Below are positions 1,957-57,104 of a DNA stretch of 57,104 nucleotides, piece by piece; the stretch's first letter is position 1, and every line of letters begins with the position of its first letter. The notes below the pieces were generated by a model. The model did no database searches and was not told the DNA's origin. It saw nothing but the letters and a program-made list of their open reading frames with translations. The DNA is from Candidatus Olsenella stercoravium (GTDB lineage Bacteria; Actinomycetota; Coriobacteriia; Coriobacteriales; Atopobiaceae), in NCBI GenBank assembly GCA_019116265.1, contig DXBZ01000035.1, forward strand, positions 1 to 57,104, given 5' to 3'. The position numbers and the translations under genes were made by a program.

Positions 1957-4900
1957 CTAGGAATAGCGCTCGAGGCAGGCGTTGCGGGCGATTCTGCGAA
2001 CCTCGGCGGCCTGGGCGTCGTCGAGGTTCGCGCATATGCGCTCGGCGATGACGTCCTCCGTGGCGCTCCTGTCCCAGCGGACGCCTCTGCGCCAGGCCTT
2101 GCGGCAGAGGCGTCGCCAGGCGCCCTCACAGGTCGCTGCCCTGCGACGCCGGACGAGAAGGACGAGCGCTCCGCCCGCGAGCGCGATTGCCGCCAGGGCG
2201 AGGAGGCTGGCTGTCTGCCAGTCGATTGGCGAGGGGGCGTCCTTCTCGTCCGGCTCGACGGGGGAGTCCTGCAGAGGCGTCTCCTCTGCGGGCTCGGCGG
2301 GCGTCTGCTCGGGAACGTCCGGCTCCTCGGCCTCAGGCGTCTGGTCCGGCTCGCTCGGCTCCGCAACCGGTGCGCCGTCGGCGGGCGTCACGTCGACGCC
2401 GACCCAGCCGACCCCGTCGAGCCAGACCTCCGCCCAGGCGTGAAGCTGGAGCATGGTGACCACGTAGCTTCCGTCTGCGTCGCGCGTCGGGTCGGGCGCG
2501 TAGCCGAGCGCCACGCGCGCGGGAACGCCGAGCTCCCGCGCGAGCAGCGCAAACGCCGTGGCGTAGTGAGTGCAGTAGCCCTCGCGCTCGACGAGGAAGT
2601 CATTGACGACCTCGAGATTGTCCAACCCGTCGCCACCGGGGGCGTCAAGCGAGTAGGAGAAGCTCCCGTCGGTGAAGAAGGCCACGAGCCAGCGGACGGC
2701 CTCCACCTCACTGGCAATGTTGCCCGCCGAGGTGCCTGCCCCCTCGGCCTGCGCCTGGTTCACCACGGACGCGATCGCATCGGGAATCTGATCGGGGACC
2801 GCGACGGTCTGCTCGCCGGGACCTTCGCTCTGAGCGTCATAGCGCTCGAGGCTCGGTGCGAGCTGGAACAGCGTGTCAAGGTACGAGGTGCCCGTGATCG
2901 GGGGGAGGTAGCAGCCCGATGCCACGAGGCTCCCGTCGTCGTTGACGAGCTCGGTCGCCGTTCCCGGCGGGGTGGGCAGGGGCCGGTCGCCCGTCCCTTC
3001 GGGAACGAGGGTCGTCGTGACGAAGGGGGCGAGGTCCGCAGCGTACGCCCCCTCTCCGATGCCGCCGTCGCGGCCCGCCCAGAAGAGCGCCGAGCTCCCC
3101 TCGAGCGCGGTGCCATCTGGTCCCCCGAAGCGCCATGTGGTGCCGTCAAAGGTGTCGAGTACGCCGAGTCGAAGGTAGACGGGCCCGATCGCCGTGGTCT
3201 CATAGCTGAGGACCAAATCGGCCGACCTGCTGCGCAGATCTTGCGAGAGGTCCACGAGCGTCTCGACGCGCGTCCCGCCCGCGGACCACGGCGAGAAGTC
3301 GCCCGAGGGGGCGACGGCGCTCGCACCCCACCCGAGCGCGAGGGCGAGCAGCGCGACCGCCGCGCCGCGCGCGGGACGGGGCCGTGCGCTCACGGAGAGC
3401 CAGACGAGCGCGAGTCCCAGCGCGACGCTCGCCCACGTCCAGGCAAGGTTGGCTCCGGGCCCCATGATCGACTGGTCGACAGCCGAGAGGCCCAGCGGGA
3501 CGAGCGCGGCGGCGGGTCTGAGCGAGCGCGAGGCGCAGAGCACGGCGAGAAGGGCGGCGAGCCCGGCTCCCATGAGCACGACGAGAAGGTCCCAGGTATC
3601 GGGTGCGCCCGGAGCGAAAGTCCCCGAGAGCTGCTCGGCACCCGTCGAGATGACGGTCGCGAGCGAGGCCAGGGGCTCGTCCCACACCGTCCGGGATGCG
3701 TCGGGCCCCACGCGCTCGTCGAGGGCGGTCAGGGCGAGCGCGGCCCCTGTGACGACCAGCGCTGCGGCCACAAGCGGCGGAAGCGCGACACGAGCCGCCC
3801 AACGCGCGTCGCGCCAGCGCAGGAGCGAACCGAGCAGCGAGCCCGCCGCGGCGCCCGCGCACAGGAGCACGGGGACGCTCTCGCGCCACGCGCCCTCGTA
3901 GATCATGCTGGTGAGGGAGGCGCACGCAAGCATCGCAAGCGCGACGCAGGCGAGAAGGGCGGCGAGCTCCGCCGCGACGTGCGGGTGCGGGGTCTCGCTC
4001 GTTACCCGTCCCGGTGCGCCGCCGTGGCCCTTCTCGGCAGGCGCCTCGTGCGCCTCACCGGCCCGCGCGGGCCCCTCGGCGCGCACGACGGTGACGGCGC
4101 CCGCGATCGGCCCGCCTCGCAAGGCCCGCTCCAGCGCGCCTCCCGCCTCGCAGGTGACGAGCACCACGCGCCGACGCTCGGACCCGCCGCCCGCGAGCCG
4201 GGCGACGCCGCGGGCACGCTCCTCGGCCAGCCCCGCGTCCGCGCGCTCGCCCACGACAGCGGCGCAGAAGCGCTCCTGCTGGACCGGGGAGCGCAGGGCG
4301 AGCGCCCCGTCGCTCAGCAGGACGTCGGGGTTGTTCCGCAGGGCCTGGAGCACGGCCGCCGTCGCCGCCGCCAGCTCGTCGCCCGAGCCCGCTCCAAGCG
4401 TGTCGGCAACCACGAGCACCGCCGACGCGCCCTTTCCCGAACGCTCGAAGGACATGAGCTCGCCGTGGTGGGCGCTCTGCCGCCAGGCGATCTGTCGCAG
4501 GCCGTCGCCCCGCTCGTAGGGACGCACGCCCGTGGGGTCCGGCTCGGGGCTCGCGTCCATGAGTCGCGCGAGCTGACGGCTCTTGACGGAGCGCAGCAGC
4601 TCGTGGCTCACGGCGGGAGGAACGCGCAGCTCGCGAGCGGCGGGCTCGACGCGCGCGGCGCGCCAGAAGCCAAAGGCGTCGGTCCAGCTCAGACGCACGC
4701 TTCGTTGACGATAGAGGCCACGTTCGGTTCCCGGCGCGGAGAGGCTCCGAACGACTTTGCCGCGCTGGTCGACGCGCACCCAGGATTCGACGCGCGCGCT
4801 CGTCTCCACGAGGCGCGACCATGGTCCGCGCGTGCGCAGGCGGCGGGCGAGAAGGACCTCGGCTAGCCCCGTGACGCAACCGGCGAGAAGCGCGATTCCG

Positions 4901-5028
4901 GCGGCGCCCGGTGCGAGCCAGCCACCGACGAGACCCGTGAGCAGGAGCGCGGCGCCGAGGACAAGCTGGACGGCCCCGCGTCTCGTGAGGGCCGGGAAGT
5001 GGTCGCCCTTCTCGCCCCGCCCGCTCAT
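1957..5028 (-). CDS. DUF58 + membrane region + transglutaminase-like domain fusion protein (about 1023 aa)
   Basis: ATG at 5028 overlaps the MoxR stop (ATGA); DUF58 motif VRPYERGDGLRQIAWRQSA; many TM segments; transglutaminase triad GYCTHYA / HAWAEV / VDVTP. Confidence 0.85.
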   Translation of the reverse strand: MSGRGEKGDHFPALTRRGAVQLVLGAALLLTGLVGGWLAPGAAGIALLAGCVTGLAEVLLARRLRTRGPWSRLVETSARVESWVRVDQRGKVVRSLSAPGTERGLYRQRSVRLSWTDAFGFWRAARVEPAARELRVPPAVSHELLRSVKSRQLARLMDASPEPDPTGVRPYERGDGLRQIAWRQSAHHGELMSFERSGKGASAVLVVADTLGAGSGDELAAATAAVLQALRNNPDVLLSDGALALRSPVQQERFCAAVVGERADAGLAEERARGVARLAGGGSERRRVVLVTCEAGGALERALRGGPIAGAVTVVRAEGPARAGEAHEAPAEKGHGGAPGRVTSETPHPHVAAELAALLACVALAMLACASLTSMIYEGAWRESVPVLLCAGAAAGSLLGSLLRWRDARWAARVALPPLVAAALVVTGAALALTALDERVGPDASRTVWDEPLASLATVISTGAEQLSGTFAPGAPDTWDLLVVLMGAGLAALLAVLCASRSLRPAAALVPLGLSAVDQSIMGPGANLAWTWASVALGLALVWLSVSARPRPARGAAVALLALALGWGASAVAPSGDFSPWSAGGTRVETLVDLSQDLRSRSADLVLSYETTAIGPVYLRLGVLDTFDGTTWRFGGPDGTALEGSSALFWAGRDGGIGEGAYAADLAPFVTTTLVPEGTGDRPLPTPPGTATELVNDDGSLVASGCYLPPITGTSYLDTLFQLAPSLERYDAQSEGPGEQTVAVPDQIPDAIASVVNQAQAEGAGTSAGNIASEVEAVRWLVAFFTDGSFSYSLDAPGGDGLDNLEVVNDFLVEREGYCTHYATAFALLARELGVPARVALGYAPDPTRDADGSYVVTMLQLHAWAEVWLDGVGWVGVDVTPADGAPVAEPSEPDQTPEAEEPDVPEQTPAEPAEETPLQDSPVEPDEKDAPSPIDWQTASLLALAAIALAGGALVLLVRRRRAATCEGAWRRLCRKAWRRGVRWDRSATEDVIAERICANLDDAQAAEVRRIARNACLERYS

Positions 5029-55985: not shown

Positions 55986-56051
55986 ACATCCTCAGCCAAG
56001 AAACCCCTGATGGCGAGAAGAATGCCCGCCTGGCATCTCGCCAGAGAAGAG

Positions 56052-57104
56052 ATGTCTATGCAGCTTGTGCTCTCCGGCGTGTGCTACGCCTACCCTGCGG
56101 CCCGCGAGGCCGTTCTCGACAATGTCACCATCACCTTCCCCACCGGATGGACCACGCTTCTGGGCGACAACGGCTGCGGCAAGACCACGCTGGCCAAGAT
56201 CGCGTGCGGCCTCATCGAGCCCGACGCCGGATCCGTCACGCATGACCTCGTCTGCGCCTACGTGGCCCAGGACGCCGACAAGCCGCCCGAGGGGCTCGCC
56301 GACTTCGCGCTGGACTACGACCGCGAGGCCCGGAGGCTCCGCGAGGCCTTCCGCATAGAGGACGACATGCCCTGGCGCTTTGGCGAGCTCTCCTTCGGTG
56401 AGCGCAAGAAGCTGCAGGTGGCGGTTGCCCTCTGGAGTCGCCCCGACGTGCTCGTGGCGGACGAGCCGACCAACCACCTTGACGCGGACGCTCGCGAGCA
56501 GCTGGGTGAGGTGCTCGAGGGCTTCCGCGGCATCGGAATTCTCGTAAGCCACGACCGCGAACTCGTGGACCTTCTCGCCGCGCGTTGCGCGTCCTTTGAG
56601 CCCGGAGGCATCGTCGTGCGACCGGGCGGCTACAGCGCGGCGCACGGCCAGGCGGAGCTCGAGCGCGCGACGGCCGTCGCGGAGCGCGCGAGCGCCAGAC
56701 GTGAGCTGGCCCGCCTCTCGGCCGAGAAGGACGCTCGGGCCCACGAGGCCGCTCGCGCCGACGCGCGGCGCAGCAAGCGGAACCTGGACCCGCGCGACCG
56801 CGACGCGCGCGGCAAGATCGACCTTGCCATCTTCACCGGGAAGGACGGGCAGGCGGGACGTCTCTCCTCGCAGATGAACGCGCGGGTGGCCGCCGCGCAG
56901 GAACGCCTGGCCGCCGCGCGCGTTGCCAAGCGCTACGACGGCGACCTCTGGGTTGACGCCAGGCCGAGCCCTCGCAAGACCGTGCTGCACGTCCCGTCAG
57001 CCACCATCCCGTGCGGCCCGGAGGGAACGCTCCAGATTCCCGAGCTCTGGGTGGGAAGCCGCGACCACGTGGGCATCGTCGGACCCAACGGCGCCGGCAA
57101 GTCC
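56052..57104 (+). CDS. ABC-F family ATPase (ARE-like), 3'-truncated by the window
   Basis: GDNGCGKTT, LSFGE, DEPTNHLD, VSHDR, long helical linker, second Walker A GPNGAGKS; no TM; missing from the supplied ORF track because the frame has no stop in the window. Confidence 0.88.
   Translation, partial: MSMQLVLSGVCYAYPAAREAVLDNVTITFPTGWTTLLGDNGCGKTTLAKIACGLIEPDAGSVTHDLVCAYVAQDADKPPEGLADFALDYDREARRLREAFRIEDDMPWRFGELSFGERKKLQVAVALWSRPDVLVADEPTNHLDADAREQLGEVLEGFRGIGILVSHDRELVDLLAARCASFEPGGIVVRPGGYSAAHGQAELERATAVAERASARRELARLSAEKDARAHEAARADARRSKRNLDPRDRDARGKIDLAIFTGKDGQAGRLSSQMNARVAAAQERLAAARVAKRYDGDLWVDARPSPRKTVLHVPSATIPCGPEGTLQIPELWVGSRDHVGIVGPNGAGKS

What the first reader, a model, noticed from the sequence alone, without database searches (positions are those of the whole stretch)
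3290..56579. Strongly over-represented 9-mer GGCGAGAAG/CTTCTCGCC on both strands: candidate DNA-uptake-like sequence
Seen: at least 33 exact copies counted by eye (3290, 3949, 4846, 4882, 5008, 5223, 12566, 13365, 16181, 18194, 18635, 19207, 24011, 24281, 24584, 25310, 25659, 34475, 34484, 34622, 35591, 38013, 39107, 43185, 48713, 48747, 49248, 50617, 51347, 55223, 55234, 56012, 56571) plus one-mismatch variants. A simple 70% GC model predicts under 1 copy in 57 kb. About 12 copies are intergenic. It occurs as a tandem run (34475), as inverted pairs (48713/48747; 55223/55234 inside a CDS), and within genes as either GEK or LLA using the less common CTT codon. I saw none in the IS110 or htpG. 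Known: Neisseria DUS and Pasteurellaceae USS behave this way, while Chi and KOPS are strand-polarised. Inference: an uptake signal or nucleoid-protein/methylase site that I do not know to be described in Coriobacteriia.
Basis: partly seen in the sequence, partly recalled or inferred. Interest (0 to 1): 0.8.

Follow-up and report, generated by a model that had tools for sequence, protein, structure and literature searches.

The report
Uptake-sequence-like word in gut Atopobiaceae
A 12-letter DNA word is written about 1,500 times on both strands of this gut actinobacterium's chromosome, and of many relatives, but not in its prophage, and it is likely a self-recognition tag for DNA uptake of the kind so far shown only in the Gram-negative Neisseria and Haemophilus families.

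Summary
Real. The 9-mer occurs 34 times in the window (1.3 expected) and 923 times in the genome, where it is the commonest 9-mer. The full word is G(G/C)CGAGAAG(A/G)AC, about 800 copies/Mb in its looser form. It survives protein-fixed shuffles (antisense-in-gene 348 vs 36), shows no strand or replichore polarity on a complete relative, doubles the tripeptides GEK/EKN/EKD, keeps a rare codon between orthologues (78% vs 25%), and sits at chance level in prophage and phages. It is enriched throughout the genus (closest named: Thermophilibacter, Atopobiaceae), is patchy across the family, and has dialects around an invariant CGAGAA core. That is the genomic signature of DUS/USS. The host has intact comEA-comEC, a Tad pilus, yraN-comM-dprA and recA, which share an upstream 11-bp-period box, so it is probably competent. 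Against: those genes are also in motif-poor relatives, no receptor was found, terminator pairing is weak, and uptake is untested. Chi/KOPS, shared-methylase and codon-artefact readings fail. Best reading: an uptake or processing bias in natural transformation (0.55), the first in a monoderm. I found no paper on it. This scan noted similar words, with other letters, in other lineages.

The parts
3290..3301 (+). motif copy, antisense in TgpA-like gene, lacks terminal C
3949..3960 (+). motif copy, antisense (LLA)
4846..4857 (+). motif copy, outside called genes (possibly 5' part of TgpA-like gene)
4882..4893 (+). motif copy, same region
5005..5016 (-). motif copy just after MoxR gene
5223..5234 (+). 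motif copy, antisense (LLA) in MoxR gene
12566..12577 (+). motif copy, sense (GEKT)
13362..13373 (-). motif copy, sense (GEKR) in DegV gene
16178..16189 (-). motif copy, intergenic
18194..18205 (+). motif copy, intergenic
18632..18643 (-). motif copy, antisense (LLA) in EamA gene
19207..19218 (+). motif copy, sense (GEKD)
24011..24022 (+). motif copy, intergenic
24278..24289 (-). motif copy, sense (GEKN)
24584..24595 (+). motif copy, antisense (LLA)
25310..25321 (+). motif copy, antisense (LLA)
25656..25667 (-). motif copy, sense, other frame
34472..34492 (-). two tandem copies (34475, 34484), intergenic
34622..34633 (+). motif copy, intergenic
35588..35599 (-). motif copy, intergenic
38010..38021 (-). 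motif copy, antisense (LLA)
39104..39128 (.). motif copy (GEKD, sense) with an inverted variant copy next to it, inside the LysE gene
43185..43196 (+). motif copy, intergenic between convergent genes
48710..48758 (.). inverted pair (48713 -, 48747 +) between convergent genes, predicted hairpin
49248..49259 (+). motif copy, antisense (LLA)
50614..50625 (-). motif copy, intergenic
51344..51355 (-). motif copy, sense (GEKN)
55223..55242 (.). overlapping inverted pair inside EF-G-like gene
56012..56023 (+). motif copy, intergenic, lacks terminal C
56568..56579 (-). motif copy, antisense (LLA)
21190..22410 (+). IS110 transposase: motif-free (internal negative control)
   Evidence: Pfam; 0 copies strict or loose

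Best explanation
The word G(G/C)CGAGAAG(A/G)AC is dispersed about once per kilobase on both strands of the chromosome, is kept against codon preference and is missing from recently acquired DNA, and it is likely a DNA uptake sequence: a protein of the predicted natural-transformation route (Tad pilus, ComEA, ComEC) would favour fragments carrying it, and repeated biased uptake and recombination would then drive it into every tolerant position. Shown: the statistics, the dialects with a fixed CGAGAA core, intact competence genes and their shared upstream box. Inferred: that the cells are competent, that the Tad pilus is the competence pilus (as in Micrococcus luteus), and that the bias acts at binding or import. 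The reader protein is not identified; the Tad minor pilins are the default candidates by analogy with ComP/PpdA. Lineages without the word would have lost or never gained the specificity while keeping the machine.
For: Protein-fixed synonymous shuffle: antisense-in-gene 348 vs 35.9 (max 48 of 20 shuffles), sense 302 vs 203; dicodon Markov 94 and 116. GEK 291 vs 148, EKN 155 vs 67, EKD 214 vs 105 are ranks 1, 2 and 4 of all tripeptides, the 'doubling' described for DUS/USS (PMC2817400 abstract). Intergenic 1.07/kb vs coding 0.41/kb. Sharp core: changing positions 3-9 or 12 of the 12-mer drops 411 to 0-31. No polarity: per-contig chi2 46.7 on 65 df; complete relative G002, 20 x 20 kb: best half-chromosome split 52%. 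Orthologue conservation in 251 gene pairs: CTT kept 117 of 150 inside the word vs 191 of 763 elsewhere. Prophage contigs (37 kb): 2 strict copies vs about 34 at genome density, equal to its codon-shuffle null of 2.1; five related phages at null, 9 vs 11.6 and 8 vs 6.6. Lowest density in the most conserved genes, 0.52 vs 1.0-1.1/kb. 24 of 24 congeners enriched. Dialects: g31 TGGCGAGAAR and CGAGAAACCC, g40 TGCCGAGAAR; antisense enrichment there 25 vs 4.4 and 20 vs 5.6. comEA-comEC, a full Tad operon, yraN-comM-dprA, recA and ssb are intact. A matrix trained only on 80 Tad-promoter regions of relatives puts comEA, yraN, recA, rpsF-ssb and rcpC at scores reached by only 2, 4, 6, 10 and 14 of 1552 upstream windows; the same four operons carry the box in G002.
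Against: No uptake experiment. comEC (159 of 161), comEA (158 of 161) and the TadG-like pilin (161 of 161) are found in motif-poor and motif-rich family members alike. The 11-bp promoter periodicity is equal in both groups (12.2 vs 12.2). No residue of ComEA or ComEC clearly separates 12 rich from 9 poor genomes, and inspection of the TadG-like alignment showed none. Its Cys/His domain has no match to a known DNA-binding fold (best Z 5.2). Terminator use is weak: 43 close inverted pairs among 1713 copies, and 94 of 411 intergenic copies have an inverted core within 60 bp vs 15.5% by chance, against about half of DUES in terminators (bioRxiv 2025.10.24.684340 abstract). The distribution is patchy within the family (about 7 to 1000/Mb), unlike the family-wide DUS. 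comEC's 7 copies here are not repeated in relatives.
Confidence: 0.55

Rival explanations
1. Post-uptake signal. The word protects incoming DNA or stimulates its recombination in the cytoplasm (AddAB, ComM-YraN, DprA or a nuclease), like a non-polar Chi or like HIP1 in Synechococcus; the same drive would enrich it.
For: Any bias in transformation gives the same genome statistics (inference). An AddA-like helicase-nuclease and yraN-comM-dprA are present. HIP1 raises transformation in a homology-dependent way (bioRxiv 2024.09.10.611283 abstract). Patchy gain or loss would fit a swappable cytoplasmic factor (5 changes on a quick CpaF tree, 2 forced by starred branches).
Against: Chi sites are strand-skewed (recalled); here 50-52%. 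The DUF559-like paralogues under the competence box do not track the word: none found in motif-rich g38, 6-13 in motif-poor g45. No shared methylase.
Confidence: 0.17
2. Binding site of an abundant sequence-specific chromosome protein (nucleoid organiser or SMC-related), kept by selection and unrelated to DNA uptake.
For: Both strands, conservation and absence from new DNA are also expected of such a site. Competence genes do not covary with the word. There is an unexplained excess of opposite-orientation neighbours at 60-150 bp (same-strand fraction 0.16-0.38).
Against: Present in all 20 sampled segments of a complete chromosome (7-30 per 20 kb), with no ori or ter zone. No 10-11 bp phasing (Rayleigh Z at most 2.0). 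Spacing is random (CV 1.035 vs 1.018 +/- 0.025). Known site-specific organisers use tens of mostly palindromic sites (recalled), not 1,500-2,700 asymmetric ones.
Confidence: 0.15
3. Drive from another route: a packaging or conjugal-transfer bias (GTA, TraB-like translocase), or methyl- or repair-directed gene conversion.
For: Would also fill tolerant sites on both strands (inference). Type I/IIG methyltransferases occur in 4 of 5 rich genomes.
Against: The complete, motif-rich G002 has no PF02384, PF07669, PF01555 or PF02086 match; three others have no PF00145 match. Phages neither carry nor avoid the word. No GTA or TraB was searched for.
Confidence: 0.08
4. By-product of codon, dipeptide or Shine-Dalgarno usage in a 67% GC genome.
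For: E-K is read GAG AAG. The word resembles an RBS and is sense-biased just before starts (42 vs 4, partly circular because my gene finder rewards such sites) and in the first decile of genes (114 vs about 53).
Against: Ten-fold excess on the antisense strand with the protein fixed. Relatives of similar GC lack it (g22: 4 vs 5.2), while a 46%-GC genus has it.
Confidence: 0.01

Closest known systems
DNA uptake sequence (DUS) of Neisseriaceae, read by minor pilin ComP
   Same: Continuous 10-12 bp asymmetric word, order 1000 copies per genome, both strands, dialects around a fixed core, conserved, absent from new DNA, tripeptide doubling.
   Different: Unrelated sequence (core CGAGAA vs CTG). 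Monoderm actinobacterial host with a Tad rather than type IVa pilus. Few inverted-repeat terminators. Patchy within the family. Function untested.
Uptake signal sequence (USS) of Pasteurellaceae (receptor predicted as ComN/PpdA)
   Same: About 1 copy per kb, strong core with degenerate flank positions, variable density among species, proteome imprint.
   Different: No AT-rich downstream segments (flank profile flat beyond about +13); unrelated letters; no outer membrane.
HIP1 (GCGATCGC) of cyanobacteria
   Same: Hyper-abundant dispersed word in genes and between them; linked to transformation efficiency.
   Different: Not palindromic; no shared methyltransferase found; no periodic spacing detected.
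Chi (RecBCD/AddAB) and KOPS (FtsK)
   Same: Short, over-represented, asymmetric.
   Different: No replichore polarity.

Membership tests
DUS/USS uptake sequences | 9-12 bp asymmetric word, hundreds to thousands per genome, far above Markov and codon nulls | tested here: met
DUS/USS uptake sequences | Both strands, no replichore polarity | tested here: met
DUS/USS uptake sequences | Roughly doubled motif-encoded tripeptides | tested here: met
   GEK, EKN and EKD 2.0-2.3 fold; criterion from PMC2817400 abstract
DUS/USS uptake sequences | Conserved in core genes, absent from recently acquired DNA, favours permissive sites | tested here: met
   criterion from PMC2397512 abstract
DUS/USS uptake sequences | Clade dialects with an invariant inner core | tested here: met
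   (60-80 kb samples per genome)
DUS/USS uptake sequences | Large share in inverted-repeat terminators | tested here: not met
   43 close pairs among 1713 copies; 23% vs 15.5% by chance in intergenic DNA
DUS/USS uptake sequences | Sequence related to DUS (CTG core) or USS (GCGG core) | tested here: not met
   core is CGAGAA; known cores from PMC12616744 passage
DUS/USS uptake sequences | Type IVa pilus with a ComP- or PpdA-type minor pilin receptor | tested here: inconclusive
   the only PF00437 ATPase in the 89%-complete assembly is the Tad CpaF; a pilin-motif scan found only Flp-like proteins; ComP and PpdA were not searched by profile
DUS/USS uptake sequences | Host has the transformation machinery | tested here: met
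   shared box
DUS/USS uptake sequences | One copy raises uptake or transformation | not testable with these tools
   needs an uptake assay
Chi / KOPS | Orientation skew along replichores (recalled feature) | tested here: not met
   at most 52% in any half-chromosome split
HIP1 | Palindrome | tested here: not met
   sequence
HIP1 / methyl-marked self DNA | Conserved cognate methyltransferase | tested here: inconclusive
   none of five Pfam families is shared by five rich genomes; other families and the methylome were not tested
matS / SlmA / Noc / parS sites | Restricted to or excluded from one chromosome region; few copies (recalled features) | tested here: not met
   present in 20 of 20 segments of G002; mild heterogeneity, chi2 35 on 19 df

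The most novel reading that the evidence does not exclude
Coriobacteriia have an independently evolved self-DNA uptake code, the first in a monoderm (Gram-positive) lineage. It is read by a Tad/Flp pilus or ComEA/EC component rather than a type IVa minor pilin, is controlled by an undescribed competence regulon, and has dialects and repeated gains or losses across the class.
Probability: 0.45. Interest if true: 0.9.

Novelty: new variant of a known kind. Interest (0 to 1): 0.76.

Why it matters
A 2025 review names only Pasteurellaceae and Neisseriaceae for sequence-based preference, plus Campylobacter for methylation (PMC12378983 passage). All are Gram-negative. A case in a monoderm gut lineage with cultured type strains and natural motif-poor relatives would test whether uptake specificity needs an outer membrane and a type IVa pilin, and whether drive alone explains such words. 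It would also suggest how to get DNA into these little-studied gut commensals: add the word and induce the predicted regulon.

Tried and rejected
Receptor hunting failed. TadG-like pilin: present in 161 of 161 genomes; the full model (pLDDT 82) matched only helical bundles; its Cys/His domain (pLDDT 94) had no convincing PDB match, which does not show a new fold. ComEA and ComEC residues do not separate rich from poor genomes. The 150-aa boxed protein of C121 was found in only 15 of 161 genomes with this query, and the Atlas gave unnamed clusters under 0.9. The methylase link is unsupported. No enrichment in particular genes: smallest Poisson p 0.001 among all called genes of 300 bp or more. 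Box matrix score vs motif density: rho 0.24, p 0.04 over 79 loci, but the matrix was trained mostly on rich kin and the matrix-free periodicity shows nothing, so it is not used. In motif-poor G045 none of 27 strict box matches preceded a recognisable competence gene; the pattern is tuned to the genus, so this is uninformative. The sense/antisense split used a crude gene finder and was replaced. A viral pattern scan gave no result; phages were reached through the terminase instead. The phage-collection search found no host-matched annotated phage. The CpaF tree is the quick tree; the careful search did not finish.
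Full report
Observation. The window holds 34 exact copies of the 9-mer (18 +, 16 -) against 1.32 expected; none of 100 shuffles reached 34. The window is contig C15 of a 1.84-Mb, 67% GC, 169-contig assembly, 89% complete. 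The 9-mer is the commonest 9-mer in it (923; order-3 Markov 139, order-4 221).

The real word. Flank profiles show a 12-mer, G(G/C)CGAGAAG(A/G)AC. 870 of 923 copies have C three bases after the 9-mer. In a one-base scan of GGCGAGAAG(A/G)AC (411 copies), changes at positions 3-9 and 12 leave 0-31 copies, while positions 2 and 11 are tolerant. The looser GSCGAGAARNNC occurs 1494 times (811/Mb) and CGAGAAGNNC 2662 times. No AT-rich extension like that of USS is visible.

Nulls. Genes were called with my own self-trained finder (about 1727 genes, 86% coding), so boundaries are approximate. With proteins fixed and synonymous codons shuffled per gene, antisense copies are 348 vs 35.9 and sense 302 vs 203; a dicodon chain gives 94 and 116. 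The sense null is inflated because the proteome itself is changed: GEK, EKN and EKD rank 1, 2 and 4 among tripeptides at about twice expectation, the effect described for DUS/USS (PMC2817400, abstract seen). Intergenic density is 2.6 times coding density. In 251 orthologue pairs with G002, the rare Leu codon CTT is kept in 117 of 150 cases inside the word and 191 of 763 outside; TCG 86 of 106 vs 1110 of 1679. Whole-core retention is less striking: 420 of 627 (67%) vs a mean of 56% for 15 control words, one or two of which were higher.

Placement. There is no strand bias per contig, by gene majority (591/571) or by GC skew. In 20 evenly spaced 20-kb samples of the single-contig relative G002 (400 of 2024 kb), every segment has the word and no half-chromosome split exceeds 52%. 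This removes Chi- and KOPS-like readings (their polarity is recalled, from no call). Spacing is random and there is no 10-11 bp phasing. Three prophage contigs (37 kb) have 2 strict copies, equal to their own codon null; IS- and restriction-rich islands make most of the longest gaps, though some gaps are ordinary genes. Five related phage contigs are at null: neither carried nor avoided. Inverted pairs exist but are few (43 within 45 bp among 1713 copies). Near gene ends the word is oriented: purine strand on the mRNA before starts and in the first codons, pyrimidine strand just after stops (66 vs 31). I read this as secondary co-option.

Distribution. The closest named records to the Tad pilin are Atopobiaceae, including Thermophilibacter species, so the genus is probably Thermophilibacter. 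All 24 congeners drawn are enriched; 15 of 16 genomes from other families of the order are not, and one (G032) is. Among 161 family genomes, GSCGAGAARNNC runs from 328-903/Mb in the own genus (15 genomes), 376-520 in g31 (15) and 270-592 in g47 (14), down to 34-81 in g45 (14), 39-72 in g24 (4) and 7-19 in g34 (6) (densities worked out by hand from rounded sizes). Named genomes: T. gallinarum 807/819, T. provencensis 815/829, Tractidigestivibacter scatoligenes 597/639, Olsenella phocaeensis 130/126, O. porci 137/148. In 201 class genomes, the 43 of g13 are at about 50-85/Mb, one genome of that family (G352) at about 400, and several genomes of another order at 230-320. Samples of 60-80 kb show dialects: TGGCGAGAAR and CGAGAAACCC in 46%-GC g31, TGCCGAGAAR in g40, the home word in g48 and G032, a weaker GCCGAGAAG (2-4 fold antisense) in the other order, and nothing in g22 or g24. 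A fixed core with variable flanks matches the description of DUS/USS dialects (PMC12616744, passages). Kin are not independent; a quick CpaF tree needs 5 changes, 2 forced.

Machinery. The genome has comEA-comEC-holA, a complete Tad operon split over two contigs and syntenic in the 20 relatives fetched (one only partial), a prepilin peptidase, yraN-comM-dprA, recA-recX, ssb and an AddA-like gene. Tad loci are required for transformation in Micrococcus luteus (PMC6668835 and PMC12849477, passages). The upstream regions share an 11-bp-period direct repeat. A matrix built only from 80 Tad-promoter regions of relatives scores comEA 18.7, yraN 18.5, recA 16.5, rpsF-ssb 14.3 and rcpC 13.9, values reached by 2-14 of 1552 upstream windows. 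In G002, 4 of 16 strict matches precede comEA, rcpC, yraN and rpsF-ssb, and 4 more precede DUF559-like paralogues. This points to a competence or DNA-repair regulon that includes the Tad pilus (inferred). It does not explain the patchiness: comEC, comEA and the TadG-like pilin are in 159, 158 and 161 of 161 genomes, and the promoter periodicity is equal in rich and poor loci.

Mechanism. Shown: a sharply specified, unpolarised, actively maintained word restricted to long-resident DNA in a host with intact transformation genes. Inferred: a sequence preference at DNA binding or import drives its accumulation, as argued for DUS (PMC2397512, abstract) and measured for USS (PMC7811141, summary). 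I give this 0.55. A post-uptake protection or recombination signal (0.17) makes the same genomic predictions. A chromosome-protein site (0.15) is not excluded. Methyl-, repair- or transfer-driven alternatives get 0.08: no methyltransferase family among five is shared by five rich genomes. All receptor candidates tested failed to covary.

Known or new. It works like DUS/USS but is not a member: unrelated sequence, weak terminator use, no type IVa system found. Searches that found no description: the two 9-mers anywhere in full text (751 papers; the 30 listed are unrelated primer-type hits, the rest unseen); 'DNA uptake sequence' with 'Coriobacteri' (0 papers); and (listings only). The library lacks most subscription journals and I read no supplements, where genome-wide motif tables could hide it. 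PMC3630211, PMC4390886 and PMC5861425 were seen as listings only. Earlier AI notes of this scan report uptake-like words with other letters in other phyla, none in this genome or family. They are unchecked and are not support, but they suggest such words are commoner than the literature implies. Verdict: a real feature, a new variant of a known kind, interest 0.76.

Noticed in passing
G000 C126:3400, C145:5492, C148:10661, C99:7084, C57:8856 (loci L010, L032, L262, L261, L263): Shared 11-bp-period direct-repeat box (unit about GTCAGNTTCGT) upstream of comEA-comEC, the Tad operon, yraN-comM-dprA, recA and rpsF-ssb; conserved in G002. Likely an undescribed competence or DNA-repair regulon of Atopobiaceae; regulator unknown.
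   Followed up: yes
L247-L257 (11 copies in G000): Expanded family of about 350-aa proteins with a faint DUF559 match; several carry the box. Found in 144 of 161 family genomes, not tied to the word.
   Followed up: partly
window 10225-10393: Second repeat TGAACCCAAACC, 81 copies genome-wide, mostly as short inverted pairs and pairs 80-100 bp apart; REP- or MITE-like; also in G002.
   Followed up: partly
L031:749-2749 (G000 C40): 666-aa TadG-like minor pilin, single copy in nearly all of 161 family genomes, with an invariant His/Cys cluster (H342, C347, C371, C374) in a well-predicted domain that has no convincing PDB match.
   Followed up: yes
L260:366-815 (G000 C121): Acidic 150-aa protein of unknown function behind one of the strongest boxes; found in 15 of 161 genomes with this query.
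   Followed up: partly
genome-wide: Neighbouring copies 60-150 bp apart are mostly in opposite orientation (same-strand fraction 0.16-0.38), with an excess of the minus-then-plus order; unexplained.
   Followed up: no
g34 genomes: The genus with the fewest copies has short ComEC open frames (582-700 aa vs about 800) and weak ComEA matches; possibly decayed competence, but confounded by composition.
   Followed up: no
window 28253-33928: 1891-aa surface protein with DUF5979, five DUF7601 and an FctA isopeptide domain.
   Followed up: no
window 46935-47351 and 21190-22410: YoeB-like toxin gene with a small upstream ORF (type II TA pair) and an IS110 transposase.
   Followed up: no
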